A stretch of DNA of 64,000 nt from Heptranchias perlo. Taxonomy: Eukaryota. The stretch's first letter is position 1; the number at the start of each line of letters is the position of its first letter. The translations under genes and the position numbers were made by a program. Positions 26,150 to 61,619 of the stretch are shown piece by piece. A model generated the notes under the pieces. That model saw nothing but the letters and a program-made list of their open reading frames with translations. It was not told the origin of the DNA and made no database searches. The stretch lies in contig NC_090331.1 of the NCBI RefSeq assembly GCF_035084215.1, positions 63,798,001 through 63,862,000 on the forward strand, written 5' to 3'.

Positions 26150-26373
26150 AGTGTTGGTACACCGGAAGTGGCGGATGAAGAGGCCGGCGGGTGCTGTTTT
26201 AGGGACGGACTCATTAATACATCACCGTTTCTTTGGCCGTCACATCCGGGCGGTGAGAGCGGCGGCTTCACTCGGCGCTGGGCCTCGGCCGGCGGGTCCC
26301 AGCTGCAGCGAGAAGGGCTGAGAGACCGAGGCCGGGTTTAACCTCGCGGGAAGCGGCACTTGGAAAGGAAGAG
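26150..26373 (+). promoter_or_regulatory. ADAT3: Probable ADAT3 CpG promoter and non-coding exon 1
   Basis: CpG-rich; ETS motif CCGGAAGT at 26162-26169; strong donor GAG|GTGAGT after 26373; acceptor at 29800 precedes the CDS. Confidence 0.65.
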
Positions 26374-26433
26374 GTGAGTTGGGATCTACCCGAATCCCGC
26401 TGGTGTGGCTGGAGACCCCGCGCTCCTCCGGTG

Positions 26434-26998
26434 GACACCGGGTGTGAGGGGGGGGGGGGAGGAGACGCCGGTGGTGGGGGGTGTGAGGGGGGGGGGAGGA
26501 GGAGACGCCGGTGGTGGGGGGGGGAGGAGGAGACGCCGGTGGTGGGGGGGGGAGGAGGAGACGCCGGTGGTGGGGGGGGGAGGAGGAGACGCCGGTGGTG
26601 GGGGGTGTGGGGGGGGGGGGGAGGAGACGCCGGGGGGGGAAGGAGACGCCGGGTGTGAGGGGGGGAGGAGACGCCGGTGGTGGGGGGTGTGAGGGGGGGG
26701 GGGAGGAGGAGACGCCGGTGGTGGGGGGTGTGAGGGGGGGGGAGGAGGAGACGCCGGTGGTGGGGGGTGTGAGGGGGGGGGGAGGAGACGCCGGGTGTGA
26801 GGGGAGGAGGAGACGCCGGTGGTGGGGGGTGTGAGGGGGGGGGGAGGAGGAGACGCCGGGTGTGAGGGGGGGAGGAGACGCCGGTGGTGGGGGGTGTGAG
26901 GGGGGGGGGGGAGGAGACGCTGGGGGGGAGGAGACGCCGGTGGTGGTGGGGGGTGTGAGGGGGGGGGGGGGGAGGAGACGCTGGGGGGGTGGGGGGGA
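26434..26998 (+). repeat. G-rich minisatellite, unit approximately GGAGGAGACGCCGGTGGTGGGGGGTGTGAG(G)n
   Basis: More than 15 copies of GGAGACGC separated by variable G-runs. Confidence 0.92.
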
Positions 26999-27469
26999 AG
27001 ATCCTGTCAGCTGCAGCCACCTGTTCGCAATGCAGCAAATTGAGGGCACGGGGTTGTGTATTTTATTTGAAAACATCCACCGGCGATGTTACCCTGGTTT
27101 CCAGCTGGCATTAGCATCACTATAATTAAATGTTCATTAAATCAGTGCATTGATTCCGCCTCCCTCGTCCATTCTAATATTGACGATAAGAGTCTGGTCA
27201 TCAAAGCTCCGCACTGGGAGGTTGTACAACCTGCGCAAGGTAACCACGGATGTTGAGGACCATATGACCCATCTTGGTTTCTCCTTTCAGGAAGACCTTG
27301 GAGCACCCCACCCCACTAACTGCACTATGCTATTGTTTCTTTATGATTCCAGGATTTTTGCCACTTACTCTACCTGGAGTTCCATTTCAAGTGCTGATCA
27401 GTCTTGGGTGAAGAATTTCCTGATATCAGTCCTAAATTTACCTTTTACTAGTTTGAACCTGTGCCCCCT

Positions 27470-29160: not shown

Positions 29161-29850
29161 TTGTGTGCAGTGTAAGCATAAGGGATGAAAATCCTGTGGG
29201 CTTTGTTAATTAGGAACAGTTCATTATAATATCAATCACTGAGTTACTTGTGTATGTTTCTTTCTCTGGCCCCTTGCCAGCACATTATACAATCTGCTCA
29301 TAAGTGTTAGTGCTAAAGAACATACAGCTATACTGTGAAATATATTATGATTTCACTGAATATATGAGATATTGATGGTAGCGTGCTGCTTGGTTTGAAA
29401 TACAAGCACTAACAGCCCAACTGGAAATAATTAATGCTAATACTGGGTAGCAAAATGGGAAAATGTTCCATTCCTCAGCATTAAAATCCCTCGCCATGAT
29501 GGACACAATTTAATAAAATGAAAAAAAATCATAAGAATAAAGGCAAGTAGAAATTTTACACAGAGCAGATATACTTTCAAGTAAAACAGAACCAACTATA
29601 AATTGGAGCACCTGCTACCTAAGGGCTAAGATCTTTAGTGCAATTGGTGTACATTCCAATTGGATTCATGACTCAAAGGCGTGCATGTTTTTGGCTACTT
29701 TGTAAATCTAATTGAGAATGGAAGCTATAACTATTGGAAAGGTTATAGCTCTTTTGACTTTGATTTAACTGATGCTTAATTGTCTTTCTATTCTCTTTAG
29801 CTTCTGACTGTCACTGTAACAAATCTCCCAATTCTGATGTCGAAGGTACG

Positions 29851-30924
29851 ATGGAGCCACAGTGCAAAAAGAGAAAAACTGGAGCAATCGACACTTTCAC
29901 ATGGGAGCTGATGCCTGTACTTTCAGATGAGAAGTCATGTGAAGTTGAACTTCTAGAAGCATACGCGGCCCCTATTATCAATAAAAAACAAACCTCTTGT
30001 CTTGTTAAACAACTGGCTGATGTCTACCCACTGAACAATCTCCCACATATCAAGAGAGTACGAGCCTGCAGGGATAAGAACAGTGATCATCCTTTAGAAA
30101 TCATCATTTGCCTATTTAGGGATTTGAATGGCCCAGATGTACCAAATAGAGGAGTGTCCCTTAGTGATCTCTTTCCTGATGGAAAGGCTAATGGCATTGG
30201 ACTTGGAGAACCTTTCCAGGTCAAGATACCAGCATACCAACCGTTGACCAGACCTCAGTTTGAAGCAGCTAGCCAGCACTGGCCAACATCATTCCATGAA
30301 AACAAGCAAGTGACTGAAGCCCTCCGAGGCCAGCTTTTTAGCACTGAAGAGAAAGCAAAGATGCAGACTTTTATGGAAAAAGCTATCAAAGCAGCAAAAG
30401 TAGGAAAGGAAATGGGAATGGAACCAGTAGGTGCAGTGATTGTTAACCCAGCCACTGACGAGGTTATCGCAGTAGGTCACGACTGCAGAAATGGACCAAA
30501 TCCATTGCTCCATGCAGTTATGGTGTGTATTGATCTAGTTGCCTACAGGCAAGGTGGTGGTGCTTTTAATCATAACAAATATCCGAACTGTCATTTTAGG
30601 TCTGTAGAATCTTTTTCAAGTGACCGTACAATCGACATTGGTAAACCTTTGCTTCCTTTAGAGGATCATAGCTCCATAGGAGCTACTGCAAATGGGTTGC
30701 CTTACATATGCACTGAGTATGATCTGTATGTTTCCAGAGAACCATGTGTAATGTGTGCTATGGCACTGGTCCATTCCAGAATACGCACAGTTTTTTATGC
30801 AACATTCTCTCCTGATGGAGCATTGGGCACTAAATATAAAATACATACAAAGAAGGATCTTAATCATCATTATGATGTTTTTAAAGGACTGATGGAAAAG
30901 GAATGTCAACTTCTTTCATCTTAA
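29851..30924 (+). CDS. ADAT3: ADAT3, non-catalytic subunit of tRNA adenosine-34 deaminase; single coding exon, 357 aa
   Basis: LPHIKRV, HWPTSFH, PLLHAVMVCID (HAV replaces catalytic HAE), YICTEYDLY..EPCVMCAMALVHSRI, LNHHYDVF; polypyrimidine + TAG acceptor ending 29800. Confidence 0.95.
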   Translation: MEPQCKKRKTGAIDTFTWELMPVLSDEKSCEVELLEAYAAPIINKKQTSCLVKQLADVYPLNNLPHIKRVRACRDKNSDHPLEIIICLFRDLNGPDVPNRGVSLSDLFPDGKANGIGLGEPFQVKIPAYQPLTRPQFEAASQHWPTSFHENKQVTEALRGQLFSTEEKAKMQTFMEKAIKAAKVGKEMGMEPVGAVIVNPATDEVIAVGHDCRNGPNPLLHAVMVCIDLVAYRQGGGAFNHNKYPNCHFRSVESFSSDRTIDIGKPLLPLEDHSSIGATANGLPYICTEYDLYVSREPCVMCAMALVHSRIRTVFYATFSPDGALGTKYKIHTKKDLNHHYDVFKGLMEKECQLLSS

Positions 30925-35935: not shown

Positions 35936-38900
35936 TGGGTAAATGGAGTTGAAGTATAGATCAGCTATGATCCAATTGAATGCTGGATCAGGCTTGATGA
36001 ACTGAATAGCATACTCCTGTTACTATGGTCCTTACATTGGAAGTGGTGTAGCCAGGCATCAGTTGTGGGTGCACTTTTGACCTTATATATGTGATTTGGA
36101 CTTGAATAGGGAACATAGAATCTGTTAATGATACAAATGTAGGGAGTTGGGCAAACAGCAAGGAGGATTGTAAATTTGATCAGTATGTTAGCAAAATGGG
36201 CACAAGTAGATGCAATTTAATGGAGATGGTAATGGTATGTCCTGCCTTCCAGAATGAATAGAAATGCAGTAGGCAGCCTGTGCAATCTTCAGTGTGAAAT
36301 GTCATGGTCTAAGGCTAATTATGTGACACTCTGGCCTCATACCTAAGAGTAAGTTTTAGATCATAGGCAATGCAGGGCTGCCTATGGAAACTGCCCTTTG
36401 GTGCAACCATGGGAGAGCACCCAAATTGTAACCACCTAATCTGTGTCTTTTTAAAATGTTTAAGCTGATGGTACTGGGAAGTAGAATACTTTTGTCACTC
36501 CATGTTAGCACCAAGCACTCCCACATCAAATACAGCAGTCGCATTCAAAGTTACTCTTACTCTGTCCTAACAATGTGTCTCAGTCACATCAAACGTCCTT
36601 GGAGCCTCTGGGTAAATTGGTGCAAAGTTCTTTAAACAATACCATAATGTGTTAGGCACCTACAAGGACTGGGTTAGCTCAAGAGGGTAGAGGGGCCTCT
36701 GCAAGAGCCATCACCGTACTGTGGTATCAAACATTGAAGTAGTGGACTGTTATTCTAGGTTGTCTGGGTGTGCATCCTTTGGAAAATTCAAAAAAAAGTT
36801 TCCACACAAAAGGAGTCCAAACTGGTGCATTTATTTGTTGATAACACAACCTAACAAGTATGGGGATACCCAATTGATCTGAGGAGGTCTAGGTTGGGCT
36901 TACCACTGTTCCTGTTTTGAAATTGAGAAGTACTTGTTACTCTCAGTCTTATCCATATTCATTGCCTGGGCTGAAATTTCTATTTTATATGAATTTGAGC
37001 AATAGAATAGTATAAAGTAATGATTCATTAACCAAAATTCCTGGACCTCCTTCCATGTTACTCAGTCCCTAGTGTTTTGTTATGCCAGCAATCTCTGGCC
37101 TCTCTGTGCTTTTCCTATTGTGATTTCCAGCTAACCCATGTTTCAAGATGTCAGTGTCCAAATTAATCTTAGTCTTATGTACACCACAGTATTTGGCTTC
37201 TCTGAATACACCCCACTATGACAATCCAGGGTGCTCCATTTACAGATCAGATCCAGATGGGCACATTTAAAAAAAACTGGTTGATCTATGATACTCACTT
37301 TTTTTTTCTCTCCCTTTATTTCTTTCCTTATATCAGAACTATGGAAGGATACCTTAATATAACTTGTTCCAGTGTGAAATGCTCAAATAATCCCCAATTC
37401 CTGGAATTCATTACACTTATTTTTGGTCAGAACAAAATTTAAATTTTGCCACTCTGCACTCTTAGGATCTATTCTTGTTTAACCTCTCAGCACATATCAG
37501 CAGACATGATAATGCAGTACTTACATGTGAACTGAACCATAGCTAAAGTTGCTTAATTTTAGAAATACAAGAATTGCAAATGACAAACAAAATTTAGATC
37601 TTCAGTGTGCAGTAGGGAAGCTAAGTACCATTGAGTGTGCACGTTGGAAACTGGAAAAACATGAAATTATTTTCCATTTCTGCAATTTAAAATATTAAAT
37701 GTATTACTGTACACAGTTCAGGATTCCATTGCATTAAAGGCCTTTGCTTTTTTTTTGGTGTTTGACCTACACCAACTTGGATTTCCAACTTGGGAGAAAA
37801 AAAAAGCAATTTCCTATGAAAATAAAAACTGGCCCATATTTATTTTATACCTGGAAATGGTTAGTGTAATTTTGTACAGTAAAATGTTACTCAGCTAGAG
37901 TATTCTTGGAGACAATGTACGCTGTAATAACAAATCTTAAATATAAAATCATGTGTTTCCAAATTAAGAGCTTAGCAGATAAATGTTCACCATATTTACA
38001 GGGGCAGATATATATATTTTTTAAAACACATTTCTTCTCTGCCCCTTCCTATTTTCACAGTTGTTACAAAATAGCATCACCATATAGCCAACTGCTCTAC
38101 TGCCATCTGAATTTAATAAGATCACTTTTCTGCATGTGAACAAAATCAGACAGTGAGGAATGGCAAAAAGGTAGGAATGGAAACAGCACCCTGAATAAAT
38201 TAGTAAGAAAAGCAACACCAAATACAAAATAAATTTTATGGAATGAAATACAATGGATTACAGCACAAGATACATTTATATCTCCATTATTTTAGCATTT
38301 AACAATTATTCCAGTTCTTATTGCTTCAACTTTATATGGAGGCATTCAACCATTCAAAATACAGCATTAATTCTTAAATGTCAATCAGCACAGTTTAAAA
38401 AAGATATGGGCCACAATACTGTAAGGTCAAAACTTTTATTGTTTATGAAGAATTCACTTTTCCCCCCAAAGTTGTTTTAATTGCATAGAAGGAACATACA
38501 GATGTTTTACATTTTTGGAAATACCTACTAGCAGGAAGCTCAATTGTCTCAAGCTTTTTAAAAATTGATTTTACCAATAAATAGCTCTACTCAAACCTGT
38601 TTCAGAAATCAACAGTTCAAATAAAATTAGACCAGATGTGTGGTCTTGGGTAATGCTTGCAATTTTTTTGTAAGCACTTACCACAATACAGAATGTTGAA
38701 CCAACCTCAATTACCATTTGTGCTACTGCTAACCTGCAAAGACACACTGGGGGATTTAGATGTGTCGGCAAGCACAAGTCGATGCAATTTGAGTTACTTT
38801 TACTATTCCTCACAGCAACTCCAAGAGTTATGAAAAAAACATTACATGGCTGAGAAGGGGAACAGACAACCTACTGCCAGTACTCTCAGTGTCACTATTA

Positions 38901-40055
38901 AGCCAGCTACTAAGATTTGTGCAAGAGCAGCTGGGGTGACCAGTCCAATCTCCTTTCCACATGAAGGTAGTTAGCTTCTGCTCAACACATTTTCCTGAAA
39001 GCATGCAAGAGATTGAGAAATTACCATGAGTTGTAAATGTATGAGCACTGACATATTTACCCCACCACTGTCACTAAATCAAATACATCAGTGGTACAGA
39101 AGAGCTGAGAAACCTTTGGTATCAACCAAACTGTAAAATATCATTGGTCAAAACAACCATAACTTCACACCTCAAACCACATAAGTTTTTCTGAAATACT
39201 ATTTCATAATAATTCCCTCCTCCAACATGAAATACATAGGAAGCACACTGTCCAATGCAATACCACATTGATACAACTGTTTACACTTAGTGTCAGGTGA
39301 CACTCATTATATGGAACAGAAGCATGTATCCTGCTGTATATTCCCAAGCAATTAAGTTTCACCAATCAGACCTACAATATAATTGTTTGATAAAAATTAA
39401 GCTATTAACCAAACTAGTATAATCCATACAAATGGATTACATTAGCTCAAAATAAATTTAGCATTTAGTTTGATTCTCCACAAAAATCTTGTCCTGTACC
39501 ATGATTTGCTTAATCTTTAATGAAAAAAATAACAACAGTATGCTTTTAATCAAGAGTTCCGATGACAAAAATAATCTTCTTATAAAACTCAAAAATTGCC
39601 ACCCATCTAGTAATGATGGCAGTGCCTCATTCTTCTGTACCTCAGTAAATAAACAATAAGCTATTCACTCCTCAAGTGTCCGAAGTTGCTGTAATTCCGT
39701 GCAACTCCTCTCTCTAATACACTTGTGCCAGCTTTGTAAAGCTGTGTACAACAATTTCTTCAGTACAATAAAGCTTCCAATTTCAGAACTGGGCCCGCCC
39801 AGTTTCTTGTAAGAAGCTTTTACAGTATTAAGTATTTATGCCTGCTCCAATGACCAGATTTCATTTGTTTTTTCTCCTTTTACAAAACCAACATACAAAT
39901 CCTTTTTTGAAATGGATACAAACAATGAAAATGGCATTAAGACATACAGAGACTGCTCAGTACACCCTAGTAACAGTTAACAGTACAGATTACCAGTTTT
40001 AAATCTTCCCAGTAAATGTAACAAGCTAGTTAGAACATGGGTGATGAATTCCAAA

Positions 40056-40191
40056 TTAGTATTTATTGATTCCAAGGATCCGAACTCCATGTAGTTGAGG
40101 CAGCTTAGGAATCAACACAGTCAAAAGAGATGCTGTATTGACAATAAAATGTGTTGGGTCATACTTAGTGTAAAAACTGGCCAAGAAATAC
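40056..40191 (-). CDS. ORMDL1: ORMDL1 last coding exon
   Basis: [15 protein letters not shown]...[20 protein letters not shown]; total CDS 462 nt = 153 aa + stop. Confidence 0.96.
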
Positions 40192-40305
40192 CTGCAAGAA
40201 ATAAAATTATATTTAGAAAACTCAAATGATAAGCAGCACAATATTTCCTTACAAAACTACACAGTTTAACAAAGCTCCGTAACTATTAATACCAATGTAA
40301 TTCTT

Positions 40306-40521
40306 GTAAACAATTTTACAACACCAAGTTATAGTCCAGCAATTTTATTTTAAATTCACAAGCTTTCGGAGGCTACCTCCTTCGTCAGGTGAACGATGTC
40401 ACCTGACGAAGGAGGTAGCCTCCGAAAGCTTGTGAATTTAAAATAAAATTGCTGGACTATAACTTGGTGTTGTAAAATTGTTTACAATTGTCAACCCCAG
40501 TCCATCACCGGCATCTCCACA
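40306..40521. mobile_element. Miniature fold-back copy of the same Penelope-like family; 13-bp TSD
   Basis: Perfect 89-bp inverted repeat 40304-40392 / 40399-40487, 6-nt loop; CAATGTAATTCTT at 40293-40305 and 40522-40534. Confidence 0.9.
40399..40436 (+). ncRNA. Minimal type I hammerhead ribozyme motif (mirror copy on - strand at about 40355-40393)
   Basis: TCAC-CTGACGA-A-GGAGG(TAG)CCTCC-GAAA-GCTT-GTGA: stem I, CUGANGA box, stem II, GAAA box, palindromic stem-III remnant. Confidence 0.75.
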
Positions 40522-40959
40522 CAATGTAATTCTTACTCATGGGATTCTGTATATCCGTAAAGGAAACGTTTTCAAAACAAACACCTTTTACAAGCATGTT
40601 AAATTCACTCATTTTTTCCATAATTTATTTCCATTTTTTATTACCATTGTTTCTGCAGCAGGATATACAGATTTTACAAGAATTCAAATAATTAAAAATG
40701 TTCTCTGTATCTTTAAATAAACCCACCAGCTACGAATTTATATAGATTGAAGATGGACAGGTGGCCTGCTCCCAGATCTTCACCCATCAGAAATGGCCAC
40801 TTCGTGTGGTGAAGTGCTCCTTTCGCTATTTCATGTTACCCTCACTATGAGAAAGTGCTTGATCTTCTTTCAACACAATCTCAACCAAAATGGGATCTTG
40901 TGAGCCTGCACTATATAACACTGTTACAGCATCCCATTCCATCACAAATTTTGTATTGT

Positions 40960-41500
40960 GTCAAATTTGGCGAGCTGTTCAACTGTGAGCTGAGTTTCCG
41001 AGACACAATCATCCTCTCAATCACAAAGACCGTTTACTTCCATCTCCACAACACTGCTCACCTCTGCTGCTACCTCAGCCTCTCCACTGCTGAATCCCTC
41101 ATACATGCCTTCATTAGCTCCAGAATCTACTGTTTCAAATCTCTTTGCTGGCCACACATCCTCCACAAACTCCAACTTGTCCAAACTTCACTGCTCATAT
41201 CCTATCCTGCACTTAGTTCTGGTGATCCATCACCCTTGTCCTAATCAACCTAAATTGGCTCCCCACAACTCAGATTTAAAATCTTCATCCTCGTCTTTAA
41301 TCTTTCCATGGCCTCGCTGGGTCCTACTCTAAAGAATTCCCCCCCCAAAACCTCTGCACCTCCTTTAAAAACCTTCCCAAACTCAACCCTTTCAACCAAT
41401 GTTTTGGACATCCCTCCTAATCTTGTCTTCCATTTTCTTTAGGCCTATCTATGTAGCACCTTGGGATTTTTTTTACATTACAGGCACTATATAAATACAG
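40960..41500 (+). mobile_element. L2-like LINE 3' fragment in an ORMDL1 intron
   Basis: ITKTVYFHLHNTAHL...AESLIHAFISSR...LHKLQLVQ. Confidence 0.65.
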
Positions 41501-42234
41501 TTGTTGATAGTTATGTGCTAAAACACTTTCCTCCGGATAATAAAAAATGTTTTCCTCCCTTTCTCTTCTTCAGAGCGTTCCTACAATACATCATCAGCAG
41601 AGAGAGAGCCCACGTGCTCACTCACTCTGGTGGCCTGTTCACAGACCGCTAACATTACTTTATAGATACCTACTGGTTCATAAAAGCAATGTAGAGAATA
41701 GTCTTTCTCATGGTACTTTATATTTCCCTCTATCTAAACAGAAAGCAGCCACTGGCACAGCTTTGATTGAAACCTGCATCCCAAGTGCTATCAGTGCTGT
41801 CCTCACATTTTTTGCTTTGTTGTTTGATGACAAACTTCAAATTTGGCAAGTACTGTTCTGATTGGTTCACTTTACAACAGCTAATTAAAACAATTCTGCT
41901 CTCTCCCGGCAGTATAATGTAACTACACTTAACTCAAGAGGAAAGTATAAAATGTTAGCTCAAGCAAGTTTTAATTCATATTACTCATCATAAAATTAAA
42001 GTTACATTATAATTATATTTTGTCTTATTTTAGTATGACATTTAAAAAACACAACTCATTCAATGCCGAAGACACCTTTTGGTGTTGTCTCCAATGCAGT
42101 GCTCAATTTCAGAACGATGGTGTAGCAGTGCAATGGTTTAAAGCTATCACAAGTCACCATAAACAGCACAGGGTAGTGAATGAGTTATAAGAAAGCTTAT
42201 TTGCATTTACTTAACAAAAGAAGTGGGTTCTTAC

Positions 42235-42386
42235 AGAATAATTGGCGAGATAGTAAGGAATTTTCTGGAAGACGTAAACTGTACGCCATAATCCAATTGT
42301 TCCCAGTGTGTCAGAAGTCTAGCTTTCCCTTGATCAGGTGTTTCGAAGGGTGTGCCTTTGACTGCATGCAAGAACACATACATTCC
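42235..42386 (-). CDS. ORMDL1: ORMDL1 second coding exon (absent from ORF track)
   Basis: [50 protein letters not shown]; 152 nt; TGCAG / GTAAGA. Confidence 0.96.
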
Positions 42387-43122
42387 CTGCAGATGAGAGG
42401 ATGTCAGTTAAATTACAAGTAACATTGCAAAAGGACCACCCCAACCACAAATGGATACCAAAAGTAATGGATTTATGATTCATGGCAGTTTAGCAACAAA
42501 GGAGCACCCAGGAAAATCGAGCATTTCTAAAACTAGGAAAATTGAAAAAGAATTAAGGCTTTACTTCCCACAGTGATCGCGCATTTTCTGTGACATATTT
42601 TGGAGCAAAGATTATATTTTTTAAAAGAGGAATCTTTGAAAGCAAATTTAAGACAGTAAATATACAAGGTAAAGCAGATAAACTCTTGATCACTAGTTTA
42701 AAGCTCTTTCGAAGCTTGAGAAGCAGTCTCAACCCAGTTTTAGTAGACATGGGCTCATCACAAAATAGTATCTAATTCAGCATCAACTGGCATTCTTGGA
42801 AGTCACAAGATGGTTGGTGTGGGAAATGAAAATAGGTCACACTGGTGCAGTAGGGGATGAGGCTAAGGCACAAAGAGGATGCTTTACTCTTCATCTAACC
42901 ACGCTACATCTGGTTTAAATATGCTTAATGCTTACATTTGATACCTGAAATGGAAAGTGTTCCATTCCTCAACAATATCACTTCCCAATGAGCACAATTC
43001 ACCAAAGTAAAACCTGCCGACGTACTGTTTAAACATTCCTCCCTCAACTAAAAACCAGAGTAAATGGTCATTCATCTCATTGCTGTATACAAAATGGCGG
43101 TTGCATTCACCTACATGTGAAA

Positions 43123-44423
43123 ATTGTAAACAATTTTACAACACCGAGTTATAGTCCAACAATTTTATTTGAAAATCACAAGCTTTCGGAGGCTTCCTCC
43201 TTCCTCAGGTGAATGTCAAGAAATCCTCGAACCTTTCGCATTTATAAATCACAGAACAATACCTGATGATTACAGATAATCTTTCCAACTGCCCGTTGCC
43301 AAGGCAATCAAAGTGCTCGGACAGAGAGGTGTTACCTACAGGACCACCGAATATACAAACAACCAAAAAAAAGAGAGCGAGTGAGAGGCAGAAACATTGA
43401 AACATCCGGAAGGAAGAGAAAGACAGCAAATGACCCGTTGTGTTAAAAACAGGTAACTTTTGTTCGCTGGTGGGGTTACGTGTAGCGTGACATGAACCCA
43501 AGATCCCGGTTGAGGCGGTCCTCATGGGTGTGGAACTTGGCTATCAATTTCTGCTTGACGATTTTGCGTTGTCGTGTGTCTCGAAGGCCGCCTTGGAGTC
43601 CGCTTACCCGAAGATCGGTGGCTGAATGTTCTTGACTGCTGAAGTGTTCCCCGACTGGGAGGGAACCCTCCTGTCTGGCGATTGTTGCGGTGTCCGTTCA
43701 TCCGTTGTCGCAGTGTCTGCATGGTCTCGCCAATGTACCATGCTCTGGGGCATCCTTTCCTGCAATGGTACATTGGCGAGACCATGCAGACACTGCGACA
43801 ACGGATGAACGGACACCGCGCAACAATCGCCAGACAGGAGGGTTCCCTCCCAGTCGGGGAACACTTCAGCAGTCAAGGACATTCAGCCACCAACCTTCGG
43901 GTAAGCGGACTCCAAGGCGGCCTTCGAGACACACGACAACGCAAAATCGTCGAGCAGAAATTGATAGCCAAGTTCCGCACCCATGAGGACGGCCTCAACC
44001 GGGATCTTGGGTTCATGTCACGCTACACGTAATCCCACCAGCGAACAAAAGTTATCTGTTTTTAATATAACGGGTCATTTGCTGTCTTTCTCTTCCTTCC
44101 GGATGTTTCAATGTTTCTGCCTCTCTCTCGCTCTTTTTTTTTGGTTGTTTGTATATTCGGTGGTCCTGTAGGTAACACCTCTCTGTCTGAGCACTTTGAT
44201 TGCCTTGGCAACGGGCAGTTGGAAAGATTATCTGTAATCATCAGGTATTGTTCTGTGATTTATAAATGCGAAAGGTTCGAGGATTTCTTGACATTCACCT
44301 GAGGAAGGAGGAAGCCTCCGAAAGCTTGTGATTTTCAAATAAAATTGTTGGACTATAACTTGGTGTTGTAAAATTGTTTACAATTGTCAACCCAAGTCCA
44401 TCACCGGCATCTCCACATCATGG
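43123..44423. mobile_element. Penelope-like retroelement, 5'-truncated, about 1.3 kb fold-back palindrome with GIY-YIG C-terminus and 3' UTR/pLTR on both strands; 12-bp TSD
   Basis: Arms about 43122-43741 and 43765-44385; peptide CRKGCPRAWYIGET...RMNGH...PVGEHF...EQKLI...GLNRD; CTACATGTGAAA at 43111-43122 and 44424-44435. Confidence 0.9.
44294..44331 (+). ncRNA. Minimal hammerhead motif (mirror on - strand at about 43176-43213)
   Basis: TTCAC-CTGAGGA-A-GGAGG(AAG)CCTCC-GAAA-GCTT-GTGA. Confidence 0.72.
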
Positions 44424-45544
44424 CTACATGTGAAACACTCGAACACTTCAGAGATGTGATAATGTGCTATAAATGCATGCAAATTCTGCCTCCCCCCCCC
44501 CCAACCTTTCTTAATCTAGCACTACACATGCTGCAATGCAGTTTCTGTCCAGCAAGGTTAACTTTTAAAATCAGCACCAATCTTTTTCTTTACCACCATC
44601 GAGATGTCCCAACATTGCCACCTAATGCTAACATATATCTCTGGTTGCAATCCTTGCTCGGTAAATCTAGCCAAGAAGGAAAATCTGTGAAGGAGACAAG
44701 TATTTTCCAATTTTAGCACAAGAATTTTAAAAAAGAGAACATTTGGTGGAATTTAAAATCTCCAGCATGTATTATCTCACTACCACAAAATAATAAATTC
44801 ACTTTCACATTAATACATTAACGAATTATTCCAAGTAAATAATTCAATTTCATCCAAAGCAACTGGAAAAATAAAATTGCTGCAACTTCTTTACCTCAAA
44901 AACAGTCTAATAACTATGACAAACACAATTACATTTGGCTAGTCATATTGGATTCCATTGAATGCAACTGCCTAGACTTTCCCTGCCTGTTTATCTTCTT
45001 TATTCTTTTCAAAGGTTTTAAAACAAAATTCTGCTTCCTGAGTACAAGACTAATGGCAAAAACTAAATAAGTTCAAACAGTTTTGTAAAAACTTGCATAA
45101 AATTAGTGAATATCATTTTTGTGACCTAGTTTATCAAATTACTTTCACCTAGTTAGAAAGTAGCAACCTGACATTTAGCGCAAGGCTCAAAGCAAATTAT
45201 GTGCATAGCAAGTTGCCAAAAGCTGTCCTACAATGCAATTTTTAAGTTTTCAATCCCTGATGCACAGTATTGCTTGAAAGTGGTTGTGATCTTGAAAAAA
45301 AACCTCTAAGAATCCGAACAGTTTTCTAATCAAACCAAGAAAAGTTAATAGCAAATGCTGGAAATTGACAATACACAGGTCTGTCAGTATCTGAGAAAAG
45401 AAAATCTAGCTCAATGGTTCAGGCTGAGACCCTTTGTCAAAGCTATTTTGTGAATACAATAATTTCTATGAATTTTTTTTTCACAAAGCATCATGGCACA
45501 TATAAAACTGCAAACAGCAACAGTACAGATAGTCAGGTACTCAC

Positions 45545-45718
45545 CAAGTTGTGGATTACATTTGTTAAAGTCCACACAACAGGAACGGTGAAGAAGGGGA
45601 TGCTCAAAAGCACTATATGAAGCATCCCAACACCAAGCGCATATGTCAGCCATATCCCACGGCTGTTCATTACTCTTGTGTTGGGATTCACTTCACTGTG
45701 TGCAACACCAACATTCAT
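45545..45718 (-). CDS. ORMDL1: ORMDL1 first coding exon (serine palmitoyltransferase regulator)
   Basis: [26 protein letters not shown]...IHNL, 174 nt; acceptor 8 nt upstream of ATG; donor GTGAGT; paralogue assigned by linkage to OSGEPL1 and PMS1. Confidence 0.95.
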
Positions 45719-45989
45719 CTTTTTACCTGCAAGGACAAAAAAAAGGTTTACACACCTACTTTCTTGGCGTCAAGTATTTATTTTCAGTGAGTCAGATAAA
45801 AAATAACAATGGGTGTTGAAGCTTTTGCTATCTGCTAGACAATGGTTAGAAAGGTGCGTGCTTTTCGTGGTGCATCTAATTCAATTGCTAGGATTTTCCT
45901 TAACTTCTAATTAAAATAGTCCTTTTTCAATCTACGTCCATTTATGAATGCATGTAGAATAAGTGTGGCATAGAAATATAATTAATCAT

Positions 45990-47775
45990 AAATCTCTTCA
46001 GCAATATTTTATAAACATAAATAGTAAAAGGATAGTCAAAAGAAAGGTGAAGCCAATTAGGGACAAAAAAGATCTTCTTGTGGAGGCAGAGAGTATGACT
46101 GACGTACTAAATGAATACATCACATCAGTCTTCACTAAAGAAGAGGATGCTGCCAATGTAGCAGTAAAGGAGGAGGTAGTAGCGAAATTGGATAGGATAT
46201 AAATAGATAAAGAGGAGGTACTTAAAAGGTTGGCAGTACTCAACGTAGAAAAGTCATCTGGTCCAGATGGGATGCATCCTAGGTTACTGAGGGAAGTAAG
46301 GGTAGAATTTGCAGAGGCTCTGGCCACAATCTACCAATCCTCCTTAGATATGGGGACAGTACCAGAGGACTGGAGGATTGCAAGTGTCACATCCCTGTTC
46401 AAAAAAGGGGAAGCGGGATAAACCCGACAATTACAGGGAAGTCAGCCTAATGTTAGTGGTGGGAAAACTTTTAGAGACAATAATCTGGGACAAAATTAAT
46501 TGGCACTTGGAAAAGTATGGGGTAATAAATGAAAGTCAGCATGGATTTGTTAAAGGACAATTGTGTTTGACTAACTTGATTGTGTTATTTGATGAAGTAA
46601 TGGAGAGGGCTGCTGAGGGTAATGCAGTTGATGTTGTGTATATGGAATTTCAAAAGGCATTTGATAAAGTATCACATAATAGACTTGTAAGCAAAATTAA
46701 AACCCATGGGATAAAGGGACAGTGGTAGCATGGATAAAAAATTGGCTAAGGGACAGAAAGCAGAGGTGAACAGTTGTTTTTCAGACTGGAGGGGAGTATA
46801 CAGTGGTGTTCCCCAAGGGTCGGTATTAGGGCCACTGCTCTTTTTGATATATATTAAATGACCTGGACTTGGGTATACAAGATATAACTTCAAAGTTTGC
46901 AGATGACACAAAACTGAGAAATGCGGTAAACAATGAGGATAGTAACAGATTTCAGGAAGACAGACTGGTGAAATGGGCAGACACATGGCAGGTGGAATTT
47001 AACACAAGTGAAGTGATACATTTTGATATGAAGAATGAGAAGAGGGACTATAAACTAAATGGTACAATTTTAAAAGGTGTGCAGGAAGAGAGGTGGGGGT
47101 GTATGTATACAAGTCTTTGAAGGTTGCAGAACAAGTTGAGAAGGCTGTTGAAAAAGCATATGGGATCCTGGGCTTTATTAATAGGCATAGAGTACAAAAG
47201 CATGGAAATTATGCCAAACTTTTTTAAAAGACTGGTTTGGCTTCAGCAGGAGTATTGTGTTCAATTCTCAGCACCACACTTTCAGAAGGATGTCAATGCG
47301 TTAGAGAGGGTGCAGAAGAGATTTATTAGAATGGTATCAGGGATGAAGGACTTCAGTTATATGGATAGACTGGAGAAGTTGGGGTTGTTCTCCTTAGAGC
47401 AGAGGAGGTTGAGAGGCGATTTGATAGAGATGTTCAAAATCATTAACAGTTTTGATAGAGTAAATAAGGCAAAACTATTTCCAGTGGCAGGCAGAGGACA
47501 CAGATTTAAGGTGATTGGCAAAAGAATCAGAGGTGACATGAGGAAGCACTTTTTTACGCAGCGAGTTGTTATGATCCGTAATGCACTGCCTGAAAGGGTG
47601 GTGGAGGCAGATTCAATAGTAACTTTCAAAGGTGAATTAGATAAATACTTGAAGGGAAAAAGTTACAGGGCTATGGGGAAAGAGCAGGGGAGTGGGACTA
47701 ATGGCATAGCTCTACCAAAGAGCTGGCACAGGTACAATGGGCCGAATGTCCTCCTTCTGTGCTGTATCATACGTT
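45990..47775 (+). mobile_element. CR1 LINE, 5'-truncated, decayed
   Basis: GPDGMHPRLL, QHGFVKG, KFADDTKL, LERVQKRF, RGHRFK and 3' UTR. Confidence 0.9.
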
Positions 47776-48019
47776 AATGATGTTTTAATATAATTAGAAG
47801 CTAACCATCTCATATATAGCACTGTAATGCACATTGCTACATCAAGGTGTGTGTTTTATATAAGCCCATTGCTTACCTAATTGGGTGACCAACATCCTGT
47901 CAATGTGAATTTTGAAATTTGCTACCTGATGCAGTAGAGAACCACAGAGGTTTTATGGCTTCATCTTCCTGAGCTCGCACTTTCAGGGAATTATGTACTT
48001 GGAAATCCTACATCTCAAT

Positions 48020-49560
48020 GTTCATCCACACTCTTCAGCCTCTTTCCATTAAGTGTATACTCCCATTTGTTTTTCTTCCAAAATGTATTACCTCACACTT
48101 ATCAAAATTAAATTGCACATGTCTGCCCATTCCACTAACTTGTCTATGTCTTCCTGAGACCTTTTACCGCCTTGTTTGCCAAACCCCCTATTTTTGTCAT
48201 CAGCAAGTTTCAAGGTTGTACTCCCTGTCCCCAAGTCCAAATCATCCATACATACCAAGAACATAAGTGGACAAGCACTGACCCCTCAGGTACACCACTT
48301 CTAACCCTCTCCAATCCAAGCAACACCCATTTACACTAACTCTGCTTCCTGATTGTCAAGCAACATTCTATCCATGCGGTTACATTTCCTCTTATACCAT
48401 CTGTATGAATTTTTCTAACAAGCCTCTTATGAGACACCTTATCGAATACCTTCTGAAGATCCATATATACGACATGTACTGCATTACCTTTCTCTATCCA
48501 ATTGGTCACTTCAAAAAAACACCTAAATTTCTCAAACAGGACTTGCCGTAAACAAATCCAAGCTAACAAATCCAAGTAACACTCGTGTTACTAAAGCTCA
48601 ATAATTAGAATCTATAAATCAAGATAAAGAGAGTTTGCCAACATTAGATTAACTGGTCTCTAGTTATCAGTTTTATCTTTCTCTCACTTCTTGAACAAAG
48701 GAGTTACAATAGTTACCCTCCAGTGCCACAGCACAAGCTGCTTATTTAAGGAGGATTGAAAAATTGTGGCCAGAGCCTCTAATGCCTCCTCTGTGTATGT
48801 TTTCAGCAGCGTAGAGAATGTAATCAATCAGGGCCAGTGATTTATCCATCTGAAGTTCTGCTATTTTTTATTAACACCAATTTCTTTTCTACAGTGATCT
48901 CTAGCAATTGTTTCATATCCTCTCTAGTACATCTACATTCTCAATTTGACCATCATTTAAAAAACCAATGTAAAATATTTAATATCCCTGTCATATCTGT
49001 AATAAGGCCCACAATTGGGCTTCCTCCACACCTGAGCAGCCCTAACCTCCAAATATTTTTTAAAAACTTTTGTATGCTTATAACAGCCCTTACTGTTTGC
49101 TTGTCATCTGCTAGCCTTTTATTAGGCCGTCTATTTTTTTTAACCTCCCCACTACACTTTCTATATCTCTCACAATCTTCTTTAGTATTAGCCCTAACTT
49201 TATCAAATTCCTCAGTCTAGTTTTAACTTATAGAACTCTATCCTTTGGTGCATTCCCTTTTTGCCTTATAGAAATACATTTATTTTGTACTCTGACCATC
49301 TCATATTTGAAGATTTCCCACTGTTATTCAGTTGACCTGTTTGCTAACTTATTTATGCAATTAATTTGGACCTGAACTTTGCCCTTTATCAGTGCAACAA
49401 CTTTACAACTGACTGACTTCCTTTTTAAAAAATTTACATCGAACCTAATTATGTTGTTGTCACTATTTCCAATTGCTCTCATCAGCTACTTGCCCCACTT
49501 CATTTCCCAGAATCAAGCAATGCTCCTCAGTTGGGCTAGTGACATAATCCAAGCAACAGT
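48020..49560 (-). mobile_element. Older CR1 fragment
   Basis: VYMDLQKVFDKVSHKRL on the - strand. Confidence 0.7.
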
Positions 49561-49778
49561 CCTGGATGTATTCTACCGTGTTCCACATTTTGACCACATA
49601 CATAGAATTGTACAGCACAGAAACAGGCCAGTCGCCCAACAGGTCTACACCGGTGTTTATGCTCCACAAGCCTCCACCCACCTTATCAATATACCCTTCT
49701 ATTCCTTTATTATTCACATGTATCATCTCTATTCCATTCTACCATGGGATAGTTAAAATCACCTGACATTATTGCACT

Positions 49779-50140
49779 GTTGTGGCTCAGTGGTAGAACT
49801 TTCACTTCTGAGTCAGAAGGTTGTGGGTTCAAGTTCCACACCAGAGACTGAAGCACGCAATCTCGGTTGTCACCTCAGTGCAGTACCGAGGGAGTCCTCC
49901 ACTTTCAGAGAAGCACTATTCAAAAGGAGTTCTCCCCAGTGTCCTGGACAATATTTATCCCTCAAACAACTTCACTAAAAACAGATTATCTGGTCATTAT
50001 CTCATTGTTTGCACAAATTGGCTGCTATGTTTCCCTACATTTCAACAGTGACTACACTTCAAAAGAACTTCATTGACAGTAAAGCACTTTGGGATGTCCT
50101 GGAGTTGTGGAAGGCACTATACAAATGCAAGTTCTTTCTT
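49779..50140 (+). mobile_element. tRNA-headed SINE with Deu-domain-like core (SacSINE1/AmnSINE1-like)
   Basis: A box TGGCTCAGTGG, B box GGTTCAAGTTC; CAAATTGGCTGC..CAACAGTGACTACACTTCAAAAG..GGCACTATACAAATGCAAG. Confidence 0.75.
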
Positions 50141-51129
50141 TCTATGCAGATCTCCCCCTCTCTCGCTCATCTTCAATGTTTGGTAGCCTGTAATGCAGAT
50201 CAAGAATTGTACCATTTCTCTTCCTCTTTTTAACTCTATCCACATGGATTCTATTTTAACACAACCCACAGGATATTCTTATGTTGTAGCACTTTACTAA
50301 TACTACCTGCCATCCAATCCCCTTTTTCACTCCCCATCTCCCCTGAAAAGGTTATTAGGAATATTTAGTTCAAGTCCTGTCCAAACTAAATCTACAGCTC
50401 AGTTATAGCTACTGTTCCTCCAGTTATTAATGCTTCTAGCTCTCCGATTTGACGTTGAATGCTATGCATTTATATACATAACTCAATCCTGATACCAATG
50501 TGCCACTTTAAAAAAACCTGCACACCGTGCGTTCATTGCTAAACGTCCTTTATATTTCAAACTCTGACCAATGGAGTTTTAACAGCCCTATTTACTATTT
50601 CACGTAAATCCAAAAGTTGTGTTATCGGATTTAACTAGAATAGGAAAAAAAATACCCGAGGCAAAAAGGTACCAATTAACAATTCAATTTAAGATTTTTT
50701 TTAAAAAAGTGACTCCTGGCAGACAAACGTTTGCAAAATGAAGAACAAAAGGCCAGTTGCACTGATTGTGTCTGCACTTTTATTCCATTTAAACGCACAG
50801 GAAACTCCCTTAATTCTGACCTTTGTTCGATGTGTGTTGTCGCCCTGTCAACTTGCTGCATTCCTCTCTTTACAATACAGTATCGAAAGTACAACAAATG
50901 CATTTCACCATACGGTCTACTCTAATCGAAAATCCCGACAACATTTGCGATGCAGTGAACTGTCACATCCCCTAATGTCTCAAACCTACAGCAAAACTGT
51001 CGGACAAATATCCAACCAAACGGTTAAAGAAACATTAAGCAAACTGCAATATTAATCTTACTAAAAACAGTGTTGAAAGAGGGGGGAGGGAGGGGGGGGG
51101 GGGGAGGGTGTGTGTTTTTTTTTTGCAGC

Positions 51130-51700
51130 GCTAGGCCACAAAGGAAATCAGGGAGCCGAGAGCCGAGGGCGCTGCAGCTCACTCTGGACTCTGATCGATC
51201 CAACACCGTTCGTATTTTACAAAATATTAATTTTTTTAAAAACCCACACAAAGGGCGGTTCTCACTCAAGCGCGTTGCAAACAGACGCCGGAAAGCACCG
51301 TTACCCGATTAAGGCCGATGATGTCCTCACCGAGTCTGAGAGGAGGAGGTGATTGAGTCACGGCGCAGCCTCCACAGCTCACACTCAAGCCTCCACCTCC
51401 GGCCGTTCCTATCACAGCGCTGACCCCGCCCCCTCACTCTCTTGGAACGGAAGCATTGTGACGCTGTTTTTTTGAGTGACAGCCGCGGCGGACGCGCTCA
51501 GCCAATCACCAGCTCGCGAAACGCCGTCGGCGCGCGCCCAAGGGAGGGATTTCCGCGGGCGTTCCACCCGCTCTGGGCGCGCGCGCGGTGCGCGGGGGGG
51601 GAGAGACCTGTAGTTGTCGAAGGCGCTGAGCCTGGAGTGTGTGCGCCTGCACCGTGCAAGTCGATACACCCCCGAGCAGAGCTGGCACCAAGGACGTAAG
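51130..51700. promoter_or_regulatory. Bidirectional CpG-island promoter of ORMDL1 (-) and PMS1 (+) with probable non-coding first exons
   Basis: CpG-dense; GC box near 51425, CCAAT near 51503; candidate donors G|GTGAGG (- strand, after 51331) and GAC|GTAAGA (+, after 51695); genes are head-to-head. Confidence 0.75.
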
Positions 51701-54403
51701 AGGAGAGGTGGGGGGGTTTGACAAGTGGAGAGAGAGAGAGAGAGAGAGGACGGATTTCTCCCATTGATAGTACAGTGAAGTGTTGCTAAGTATTTATTTG
51801 AAGCAGTTGATTTGTGTGTTAAGTGCTGCATTAGGTTCGCTGTAGGAAAGCACCATTGGCGGGGCTTTTCTTCATTTGTTCTCTATGAGTTCAAATTATT
51901 TGTCCCAGATAGTGCTCGGAGTATTTCACCGGCTGCACAACTCGGGACAATGCTGTACATGTAGATTTATGCTCCGCTATTAGCCCTAAAAAGCACTGAA
52001 GGACATGTTTTATAGGCGTGTCTATATTTTAAGGTGATGTCAATAAAAGTGCAAATTTGTAGCGATTAATGCAGTTTTAACAGAAACGTTTACAAAGCAG
52101 GAACACGTTTCAATTTGTAACTGGCTGGGAATGAACTAAAAACCATTGTAATTTATTTTTGCTGCTGGAAAGCTATTTCAGTGCTGAAAGAGTTGAACTG
52201 GTTTCACAATTTCTTACTGTATTCTTCAAGTCGCAGATTTCACTTTTTCTGCTGCTCCTTGAGAACGTTTAATCCAGGAAATGTTATGTTTTGCTCATAT
52301 TTTGAATTTAATATTCAAATTCACTGCACAAATGCATTCCCTCTAGGCTGTTCACTTTTCCCCCAGGGCTTTAACAGTTACCCATCAGATAAGTAGACTT
52401 CCACAACTACTTGCATAATATTTCTTCTCAGCCTTTTCCAAAAACTCTATCAGTTTCTCCATCTTGGTCCTATGTGCTCTGACGACTGCACTTTCTGCAC
52501 CAGAGTTCCTAAATATCTTTTTGTACTGCTGTAGTGGAGAAGGCCGTTGGCTGCATTTGCAACATTTCTCCTGTCTTTATTCTTATCTTTTCTCACTCCT
52601 CACACCAGATCATCTACAACATGGTTGCAGCATATCTTCACCTCCCCTTTCTGTCTGTGCTCTTCCCCAGGCATTTCCAGGGAACTTCAGCATAATACAG
52701 TTGAGAAATAGGCTAAATATAGAAAGTACAGAGGAAATCTAAAAAAGGGAATAAGAAGGGCAAGGAGAGAATATGAGAATAGATTAACGGCTAACATAAA
52801 AGGGAACCCAAAAGTCTTTTATAAATGTAAATTGTGGAAGGATGGGACTGATTAGGGACAAAAAAAATGATCTTGTGGAGGCAGAGGGCATAGCTGAGGT
52901 ACTAAATGAATACTTTGCATCCATCTTCACGAGAGAAGAGGATGCTGCTATTGTAGCAGTAAAGGAGGGGGTAGTAGTGATTGGATAGGCTAAAAATAGA
53001 TGAAGAGGAGGTACTTGAAAGATTGGCAGTACTTAAAGTAGAAAAATCACCCGGTCCAGATGGGATGCATCCTGGGTTACTGAGGGAAGTATGGGTGGAA
53101 AGTGTGGAGGCTCTGGCCACAATCTTCCAATCCTCCTTAGATATGGGGACGGTGCCAGAGGACTAGATGATTGCAAATGTCACATCCCTGTTTAAAAAAG
53201 GAGATAGAGATAAACCCGGCAATTACAGGCCAGTCAGCCTAACGTCAGTGGTGGGGAAACTTTTAGAGATGATAATCTGGGACAAAATTAATTAGCACTT
53301 GGAAAAGTATGGGCTAATGAAAGTCAGCATGGATTTGTTAAAGGAAAATTGTGTTTGACTAACTGAGTTTTTTGATGAAGTAATGGAGAGGGTTGATAAG
53401 GGTAGTGCGGTTGATGTGTATATGGAATTTCAAAAGGCATTTGATAAAGTACCACATAATAGACTTGTAAGCAAAATTAAAGCCTATGGGATTAAAGTGA
53501 CAGCATGGATACAAAATTGGCTAAGGGACAGAAAGCAGAGAGTAGTGGTGAACGGTTGTCTTTCAGACTGGAGGGAAGTATACAGTGGTGCTCCCCAGGG
53601 GTCAGTGTTAGGACCACTGCTCTTTTTGATATATATTAATGACCTGGACTTTGGTATAGAGGGTATAATTTCAAAGTTAACAGATGACATGAAACTCGGA
53701 AATGTAGGAAACAATGTGGAGGATAGTAACAGACTTCAGGAGGATATAGACAGACTGGTGAAATGAGCAGATACGTGGCAGATGAAATTTGTTGACCGAA
53801 GTGTGAAGTGATGCATTTTGGTAGAAAGAATGAGGAGACATAATATAAACTAAATGGTACAATTTTAAAGGGTGTGCAGGAACAGTGAGACCTGGGGCTG
53901 CACATACACAAATCTTTGAGGGTGGCAGGACAAATTGAGAAGGCTGTTAAAAAAAAAGTATATGGGATCCTGGGCTTTATTAATAGAGGCATAGAGTACA
54001 AAAGCAAGAAAGGTATGCTAAATCTTTATAAAACACTGGTTAGGCCTCAGCTGGAGTATTATGTTCAATTCTGGGCACCACACTTTAGGAAGGATGTCAA
54101 GGCTGCAGAGAGGGTGCAGAAGAAATTTACTAGAATGATACCAGGGATGAGGAACTTCAGTTATGTGGAGAGACTGGAGAACCTGGGGTTGAGGAGGTTA
54201 AGGGGAGATTTGATAGAGGTGTTCAAAATCATGAACGGTTTTGACAGAGTAAATAAGGAGAAACGGTTTCCAGTGGCAGAAGGGTCGATAACCAGAGAAC
54301 ACAGGTTTAAGGAGTTCGGCAAAAGAGCCAGAGGCAACATGAAGAAACATTTTTTTACACAGTGAGTTGTAATAATCTGGAATGCACTGCCTGAAAGGGT
54401 GGT

Positions 54404-54653
54404 CAATTGTAAACAATTTTACAACACCAAGTTATAGTCCAGCAATTTTATTTGAAATTCACAAGCTTTCGGAGGCTTCCTCCTTCCTCAGGTGAATGTT
54501 GTGGAATGTTGTGGATTTCCACAACATTCACCCGAGGAAGGAAGAAGCCTCCGAAAGCTTGTGAATTTCAAATAAAATTGCTGGACTATAACTTGGTGTT
54601 GTAAAATTGTTTACAATTGTCAACCCCAGTCCATCACCGGCATCGCCACATCA
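54404..54653. mobile_element. Third fold-back copy, inserted in a CR1 LINE; 12-bp TSD
   Basis: About 103-bp arms 54404-54506 / 54517-54619; TGAAAGGGTGGT at 54392-54403 and 54654-54665. Confidence 0.9.
54458..54496 (-). ncRNA. Minimal hammerhead motif; the + strand mirror is mutated (CCGAGGA core, stem II mismatch)
   Basis: Reverse complement reads TTCAC-CTGAGGA-AGGAGGAAGCCTCC-GAAA-GCTT-GTGAA. Confidence 0.7.
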
Positions 54654-54949
54654 TGAAAGGGTGGTGGAAGCAGATTCAGTAGTAATTTTCAAAAGGGAAT
54701 TGGATAAATACTTGAAGGGAAAACATTTACAGGGCTATGGGGAAAGAACAGGGGAATGGGATTAATTGGATAGCTCTTTCAAAGATCCAGCACAGGCATG
54801 ATGGGCTGAATAGCCCCCTCCTGAGCTGTACCTCATATGATATGATACTATGATACATGCACCAGTAGTTCATTTGCTTCTTTACATGCCATTATCTCTG
54901 GTCCCAAACACCCAATCCACATGAGACAATCTAGTCTGCTGTGTTTGCT

Positions 54950-61333: not shown

Positions 61334-61376
61334 ATGCTAGAGGTTACACAAAACTGAAAGAAGCAATTGAGTTATA

Positions 61377-61619
61377 GGGGCTGATTTTAAACCCCAAGAA
61401 CAGGTGGGTTGGGGGCAGGTGGGAATTGAAAATAGTTGTTTTTTGGGTCGCGACTGCAACCTGGCTTTATTTCTGGGTTTAACGTCAGCGTGTAAAAGTA
61501 CAGGCTTCCCACTGGGAATGCAAAGTCTGAAAATTTTGCAGTTGCAACCCAATAAAGCAACTATTTTCAACTCCCACCTGCCCCCAACCCAACCATTCTT
61601 TGGGTTTAAAATCACCTCC
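61377..61619. mobile_element. MITE with about 80-bp imperfect terminal inverted repeats in a PMS1 intron
   Basis: GGGGCTGATTTTAAACCC..GGGTTGGGGGCAGGTGGGA.. mirrored by ..TCCCACCTGCCCCCAACCC..GGGTTTAAAATCACCTCC; TA-rich flanks. Confidence 0.8.

What the first reader, a model, noticed from the sequence alone, without database searches (positions are those of the whole stretch)
43111..44435. 1.3-kb near-perfect palindrome encoding a GIY-YIG endonuclease tail on both strands inside an ORMDL1 intron
Seen: arms of about 620 bp around a 23-nt spacer (43742-43764). The spacer is extra element sequence read on the - strand (CRKGCPRA before WYIGET), so one arm extends further 5' than the other. Arms differ by scattered substitutions and a 2-nt deletion that frameshifts the - copy; the + copy stays open to GLNRDLGFMSRYT-stop. 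Inference: ORMDL1 pre-mRNA would fold a roughly 600-bp duplex (ADAR/Dicer substrate, possible silencing trigger against the family), and the DNA may be cruciform-prone.
Basis: partly seen in the sequence, partly recalled or inferred. Interest (0 to 1): 0.7.

Follow-up and report, generated by a model that had tools for sequence, protein, structure and literature searches.

The report
Mirror-image Penelope retrotransposon insertion, shark intron
The 1.3-kb DNA palindrome is real, but it is the usual mirror-image scar that a Penelope-like jumping gene leaves when it lands, here inside an intron of a shark's ORMDL1 gene, and two smaller scars of the same kind lie nearby.

Summary
Observation confirmed: arms 43123-43741 and 43765-44384 (619/620 nt; 13 substitutions, 2 indels) surround a 23-nt spacer inside ORMDL1 intron 42387-45544. 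It is a dead, 5'-truncated Penelope-like element (PLE) insertion with the published anatomy: 12-bp target-site duplication, tail-less inverted copy, tailed copy (39-nt tail), minimal hammerhead motif in both arms. The peptide is 93-95% identical to shark proteins, one with a reverse transcriptase upstream; a relative's model matches GIY-YIG folds (weak E-values). All 3 of 3 family copies in the window (also 40293-40534, 54392-54665) are palindromes, so this is the family's routine product. Penelope editing (lizard) and siRNA from inverted copies (fly) are in print; neither was testable here. One useful detail: each arm holds element sequence the other lacks, so neither is a plain copy of the other. 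This favours two separately primed cDNAs joined head to head (about 0.5) over fold-back. The scan noted the same architecture before in two other genomes. Ordinary; interest low.

The parts
43111..43122 (+). Left target-site duplication, 12 bp (CTACATGTGAAA)
   Evidence: exact direct repeat with 44424-44435; 4 of 2000 random window pairs gave a repeat of 12 nt or more
43123..43741 (-). Left arm: tail-less, 5'-truncated PLE copy (endonuclease 3' end, 3' non-coding part, hammerhead motif); 2-nt deletion near 43688 shifts the frame
43173..43214 (-). Minimal hammerhead motif, left arm
   Evidence: pattern scan; features as in PMC4209133; activity untested
43742..43764 (-). 23-nt spacer = extra 5' element sequence of the left arm (CRKGCPRA, with the two Cys between GIY and YIG)
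43765..44384 (+). Right arm: 5'-truncated PLE copy; endonuclease frame from WYIGET (43766) to stop (44032), then non-coding pLTR part
44293..44334 (+). Minimal hammerhead motif, right arm
44385..44423 (+). 39-nt AC-rich tail, present on the right arm only
   Evidence: the tailed copies at 40486-40521 and 54620-54653 carry the same tail
44424..44435 (+). Right target-site duplication, 12 bp
42387..45544 (-). Host intron of ORMDL1 between coding exons 45545-45718 and 42235-42386
40293..40534 (.). Sister insertion A: 13-bp duplication, 87-nt identical arms, 6-nt centre, 36-nt tail; in the last ORMDL1 intron about 100 nt from the 3' splice site
54392..54665 (.). Sister insertion C: 12-bp duplication, 96-nt arms (2 differences), 24-nt centre, 34-nt tail; splits an RT-coding LINE relic whose paralogue at 47560-47650 shows the empty site

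Best explanation
A dead insertion of an endonuclease-bearing Penelope-like retrotransposon, probably of the Neptune/Nematis type, from a high-copy shark family. Shown: duplication, tail-less inverted copy, tailed copy, duplication, repeated three times in the window. Inferred steps: the element's GIY-YIG endonuclease cut both target strands 12 nt apart; each 3' end primed reverse transcription, one at the tail end of the RNA and one about 35-39 nt further in; both stopped early, 23 nt apart, and were joined head to head; gap filling gave the duplication. Since then both arms have decayed. It makes no protein. While ORMDL1 is transcribed the intron can fold into a duplex of about 620 bp, a likely ADAR substrate that is spliced out with no known effect. 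Confidence in the identity is 0.95; in the two-cDNA route about 0.5; in editing at this locus about 0.65.
For: Anatomy in 3 of 3 family copies: duplications 13/12/12 bp, tails 36/39/34 nt, hammerhead motif in 6 of 6 arms; empty site of C seen in a paralogue. 51 relatives among 81 candidates, best 93-95% in Heptranchias perlo; 3 of 5 scanned carry RVT_1 above cut-off upstream of the same endonuclease in one ORF, with a C-x4-C-x2-C linker. Model of relative P0009: top folds I-TevI (probability 1.00, TM 0.80 by target, E 0.039), T4 EndoII, UvrC. 46,602 contigs of one DNA run lay on the stretch, with depth on the element 4-5 orders above the unique flank (not a copy number). Same anatomy in print: PMC8557442, PMC3846280. 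Two-cDNA route: left arm has 23 extra 5' nt and right arm the tail; in C the tailed arm is the longer by about 4 nt, with 6 nt copied from the other arm's end; the lizard enzyme nicks and extends both strands and starts at two sites that bound the tail (PMC11167929). Both arms share 5 letters that 92-99.7% of family depth lacks, so they come from one template or closely related ones.
Against: No GIY-YIG score reached Pfam's cut-off (14.8 and 15.3 bits for the window peptides, best relative 21.9, cut-off 22.6) and no fold match reached E 0.001; the CDD PLE profile was not available. The centre junction was not shown in read contigs, and no empty site was seen for this insertion. The two-cDNA route rests on three junctions; a 3-bp pairing with one slipped base at B's centre keeps fold-back open. 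The lizard element is a Poseidon, not a Neptune, and its paper does not link its result to inverted copies. Clade was not tested by a tree.
Confidence: 0.92

Rival explanations
1. Same element, but made by self-priming: one antisense strand folds back and is copied, and the endonuclease later trims the tail from one arm (the route suggested in PMC3846280 and PMC8557442).
For: Arms share 5 rare letters. The left arm's last three bases can pair with the family sequence at the start of the right arm if one base slips (my reading). C's centre sits at a short natural hairpin.
Against: A plain fold-back from the right arm cannot supply the spacer, and one from the left arm cannot supply the tail; it needs an added trimming or template-switch step. 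The longer arm differs between B and C.
Confidence: 0.4
2. The palindrome has been kept because it works: a hairpin-RNA source that silences the family, or a regulator of ORMDL1 splicing.
For: Very stable predicted duplex; siRNAs map to inverted Penelope regions in transformed flies (PMC3681739, passages).
Against: Palindromes are the family's default (3 of 3), so this copy is not special; decay looks neutral (11 of 13 transitions, 5 at CpG, frameshift); the same paper says those siRNAs do not silence efficiently; no conservation in other species was shown.
Confidence: 0.05
3. Assembly or library artefact (fold-back chimera).
For: No contig shown bridges the centre; such structures trouble assemblers (PMC8557442).
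Against: Arms differ at 13 sites plus 2 indels, with non-majority letters on both arms; exact 12-bp duplication; one-sided tail; two sister copies of the same build; four DNA runs of one sample hold 0.91 of the words of 41500-46000 (possibly the source, so not independent).
Confidence: 0.02
4. Two independent insertions head to head, or a DNA transposon with long terminal inverted repeats.
For: High-copy family; the left arm seems to carry most of the non-majority letters.
Against: One duplication encloses both arms, none lies at the centre, the arms are within 23 nt in length and share rare letters; the arms are a retroelement ORF end and are asymmetric; duplication length varies (12-13).
Confidence: 0.01

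Closest known systems
EN+ Penelope-like element insertion unit with adjacent inverted 5'-truncated copy and 30-40-bp tail (Craig et al. 2021, PMC8557442, passages and Fig. 2 legend; Arkhipova et al. 2013, PMC3846280, passages and Discussion)
   Same: Head-to-head inverted truncated copy, one-sided tail, target-site duplication, C-terminal GIY-YIG with two Cys between the motifs, hammerhead in the terminal repeat.
   Different: No full-length body here: both copies are truncated to nearly the same point, so the whole insert is a palindrome. Duplications are 12-13 bp against 8-10 bp in the rotifer examples read.
Poseidon from Anolis carolinensis (Frangieh et al. 2024, PMC11167929, parts 1-2 of 4 read)
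   Same: AC-rich tail between two end positions; hammerhead just upstream; AT-rich targets.
   Different: The shark family's relatives carry the Cys linker that Poseidon lacks (against PMC8557442); that paper does not discuss inverted copies.
LINE-1 twin-priming 5' inversions (recalled, no call)
   Same: Both target strands prime cDNA; head-to-head join within one duplication.
   Different: In L1 the inverted part is the upstream part of the RNA and there is a poly(A) end; here both cDNAs copy the same 3' end, giving a palindrome, and there is no poly(A).
Repeat-derived intronic dsRNA edited by ADAR (Porath et al. 2017, PMC5625713, passages)
   Same: Long near-perfect duplex in pre-mRNA; Penelope is named as the massively edited LINE in lizard; hyper-editing is reported in elephant shark.
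   Different: Editing at this locus was not measured.

Membership tests
EN+ Penelope-like elements | RT and C-terminal GIY-YIG endonuclease in one ORF | tested here: met
   Met in relatives, not in the truncated copy: P0002 (93% to the peptide), P0012 and P0035 carry RVT_1 above cut-off upstream of the matched end
EN+ Penelope-like elements | GIY-YIG domain by profile score | tested here: inconclusive
   PF01541 hits at E 0.036 and 0.025, under cut-off; 4 of 17 aligned members hit, best E 0.00021, 21.9 against 22.6 bits; CDD cd10442 not available
EN+ Penelope-like elements | GIY-YIG fold | tested here: met
   Model of relative P0009 (77% to the peptide; pLDDT 77.6): ranks 1-11 are I-TevI, T4 EndoII, UvrC and one PD-T4-3 nuclease; none at E 0.001 or better; profile's best solved chain is EndoII, E 0.017
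EN+ Penelope-like elements | CCHH motif with two Cys between GIY and YIG | tested here: met
   CRKGC in the spacer frame and conserved His downstream; definition from PMC8557442
EN+ Penelope-like elements | Adjacent inverted 5'-truncated copy | tested here: met
   3 of 3 copies in the window
EN+ Penelope-like elements | 30-40-bp tail at one end only | tested here: met
   39, 36 and 34 nt
EN+ Penelope-like elements | Target-site duplication of variable length | tested here: met
   12, 13, 12 bp; empty site for C in a paralogue
EN+ Penelope-like elements | Minimal hammerhead motif in the terminal repeat | tested here: met
   Core, extra base before stem II, G-C first pair and palindromic stem III in 6 of 6 arms, one with a core change (features from PMC4209133); Rfam gave no hammerhead hit
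EN+ Penelope-like elements | Ribozyme self-cleavage | not testable with these tools
   needs an in vitro assay
Neptune/Nematis clades | C-x(2-5)-C-x2-C linker before the endonuclease | tested here: met
   Present in RT-bearing relatives P0002, P0012, P0035; cut off in this copy
Neptune/Nematis clades | Placement in the RT tree | not tested
   no reference RT set was gathered
LINE-1 twin-primed inversion | Inverted part is non-overlapping upstream RNA; poly(A) end (recalled) | tested here: not met
   Both arms copy the same 3' end; no poly(A)
ADAR-edited or Dicer-cut intronic hairpin | A-to-G clusters or 21-23-nt reads from this locus | not testable with these tools
   only assembled contigs were on offer

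The most novel reading that the evidence does not exclude
Penelope-like palindromes are made by double-ended priming: a dimeric enzyme primes cDNA on both target strands, one from each of the element's two start sites (tailed and tail-less), possibly on two RNA molecules, and host end-joining fuses the two cDNA ends. This shark family makes such inserts by default and in very large numbers, so a census of junctions in one genome could decide between this route and self-priming. I did not find this route stated for PLEs or 51 (open-licence library only; supplements unread).
Probability: 0.45. Interest if true: 0.45.

Novelty: new member of a known kind. Interest (0 to 1): 0.17.

Why it matters
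As a locus, little: one dead copy in a spliced-out intron. As a family it has two uses. Its junctions bear on how PLEs form inverted copies, which the papers read leave open. And if most of its many copies are palindromes, shark introns hold a large load of self-folding dsRNA, which would matter for ADAR editing, innate dsRNA sensing and assembly quality in these genomes.

Tried and rejected
Whole-genome census: no genome is held for this window, so the palindrome rate rests on 3 copies. Rfam scan of 38000-50000: 3 weak hits, all far under gathering score, taken as chance hairpin matches; no hammerhead family hit. Run search: no RNA holder on record was listed; no evidence either way on expression. 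Read laying on 43715-45800, 4 of 24 listed runs, contigs only: no contig across the centre was shown (tables are cut); the run guessed to be RNA covers the exon 45544-45726 in a 2263-nt contig and not the unique intron, which says nothing on editing; runs of two other organisms hold the family but barely cover the flank, so no empty site. The 129-aa + frame across the centre was considered as a chimeric gene and rejected: antisense to ORMDL1, no GIY strand, no first two Cys. Strand bias of mismatches (9 of 11 transitions give A.C pairs in ORMDL1 RNA, p 0.065; with C's 2, p 0.022) was set aside: post hoc, and four sites cluster within 36 nt. Literature searches for Neptune in sharks and for Penelope palindromes in sharks gave nothing specific. 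Earlier-notes search by place was empty.

Full report
1. Observation. The palindrome is real. The arms are 43123-43741 and 43765-44384, differing by 13 substitutions, a 2-nt gap and a 1-nt gap, with a longest perfect run of 172 nt. The 23-nt spacer reads CRKGCPRA in frame with WYIGET on the - strand, as in the family protein, and family contigs part from the window right after it, so it is extra 5' sequence of the left arm. The + frame is open to the stop at 44032 and the - frame is shifted by the 2-nt deletion. The insert lies in the intron 42387-45544 of an ORMDL gene on the - strand. Named hits of the upstream exon are ORM1-like protein 1 (best 120 of 454 listed), and the neighbours are TsaD-family and PMS1-like.

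2. What it is. The right arm carries a 39-nt tail that the left lacks, and both carry a minimal hammerhead motif with the features listed in PMC4209133 (parts 1-2 of 4 read). The peptide has 51 relatives among 81 candidates, the best at 93-95% in a shark. Of 5 relatives scanned, 3 carry RVT_1 above cut-off, upstream of the same endonuclease and a C-x4-C-x2-C linker, which points to Neptune or Nematis (PMC8557442 passages). GIY-YIG profile scores stay under Pfam's cut-off, but the fold of a relative matches I-TevI, EndoII and UvrC first, with weak E-values.

3. It is the family's routine product. A BLAST of the element against the window finds two more insertions, 40293-40534 and 54392-54665, and both are palindromes with duplications of 13 and 12 bp and tails of 36 and 34 nt. 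The second splits a LINE relic whose paralogue at 47560-47650 shows the empty site with one copy of the 12-mer. In one DNA run 46,602 contigs lay on the stretch, with depth on the element 4-5 orders above the unique flank; the tool warns this is no copy number. The same build is described in PMC8557442 (passages) and PMC3846280 (passages and Discussion). Two earlier notes of this scan report it in other genomes; they are unchecked notes, not support.

4. How it most likely formed (inferred). Each arm holds element sequence the other lacks, so neither is a plain copy of the other. In copy C the tailed arm is the longer by about 4 nt and 6 nt repeat the end of the other arm (with the family variant seen). 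The lizard enzyme nicks and extends both strands, is modelled as a dimer, and starts at two sites that bound the tail (PMC11167929). The simplest reading is two cDNAs, one from each target strand and start site, joined head to head. Both arms share 5 letters that 92-99.7% of family depth lacks, so the templates were the same or close. Against: three junctions only; a 3-bp pairing with one slipped base is possible at the centre; and self-priming with later trimming, as proposed in print, also fits. I put the two routes at about 0.5 and 0.4.

5. What it does now. It makes no protein: RT and the GIY strand are missing. The ORMDL1 strand folds into one stem of -1215 kcal/mol (no shuffle control). 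Editing is likely by analogy: Penelope is the massively edited LINE in lizard and hyper-editing is reported in elephant shark (PMC5625713 passages); siRNAs come from inverted Penelope copies in flies but silence poorly (PMC3681739 passages). Neither could be tested, as only contigs were on offer. The sense arm is transcribed second, so its hammerhead would meet a ready antisense partner and probably not fold (inference). The pattern of change looks neutral: 11 of 13 transitions, 5 at CpG.

6. Results that do not fit neatly. Two substitutions put the non-majority letter on the right arm (43892, 44033); the other 11 seem to put it on the left, but that rests partly on absence from a cut table (31 rows not shown). 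In C both changes are on the right arm. This could mean two templates or chance. The centre junction was not shown in contigs.

7. Verdict. Interest 0.17. The junction argument is the only part that reaches beyond routine; I did not find the two-cDNA route stated for PLEs, which cover open-licence papers only, and no supplements were read.

Noticed in passing
window 40293-40534: Sister palindrome A: arms identical over 87 nt and sharing three letters absent from B and C; source variant or arm-to-arm conversion. It sits about 100 nt from an ORMDL1 3' splice site.
   Followed up: partly
window 54392-54665: Sister palindrome C, between the CpG-rich stretch near 50.5-52 kb and the PMS1-like exons at 58.3 and 60.2 kb, so probably in a PMS1 intron (inferred); its centre has a short templated repeat.
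   Followed up: yes
window 40293-54665: All 3 insertions have the tailed arm on the right although they seem to lie in genes of opposite strand; chance is 1 in 4.
   Followed up: no
window 43123-44384: 9 of 11 transitions between the arms give A.C rather than G.U pairs on the ORMDL1 strand (p 0.065); four cluster at 44033-44068. Post hoc and weak.
   Followed up: partly
proteins P0001, P0010, P0016, P0021 and others: Several shark gene models (named XRCC5, PPP1R12A-like, FAM210B, septin 5a isoforms) contain this endonuclease fragment: exonisation or annotation error.
   Followed up: no
window 61372-61623: A second, unrelated inverted repeat (72% over 272 columns) with long terminal arms; looks like an old MITE.
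   Followed up: no
window 29773-30921 (+): 383-aa open frame with a dCMP/cytidine deaminase domain, between the TsaD-family gene and ORMDL1; ADAT3-like by recall.
   Followed up: partly
window 16875-18900 (+): GC-rich retroelement relic with RVT_1 and weak zf-RVT hits; L1/Tx1-like by recall.
   Followed up: partly
window 26243-27088: Strongly G-skewed, low-complexity GC-rich repeat with long open frames on both strands.
   Followed up: no
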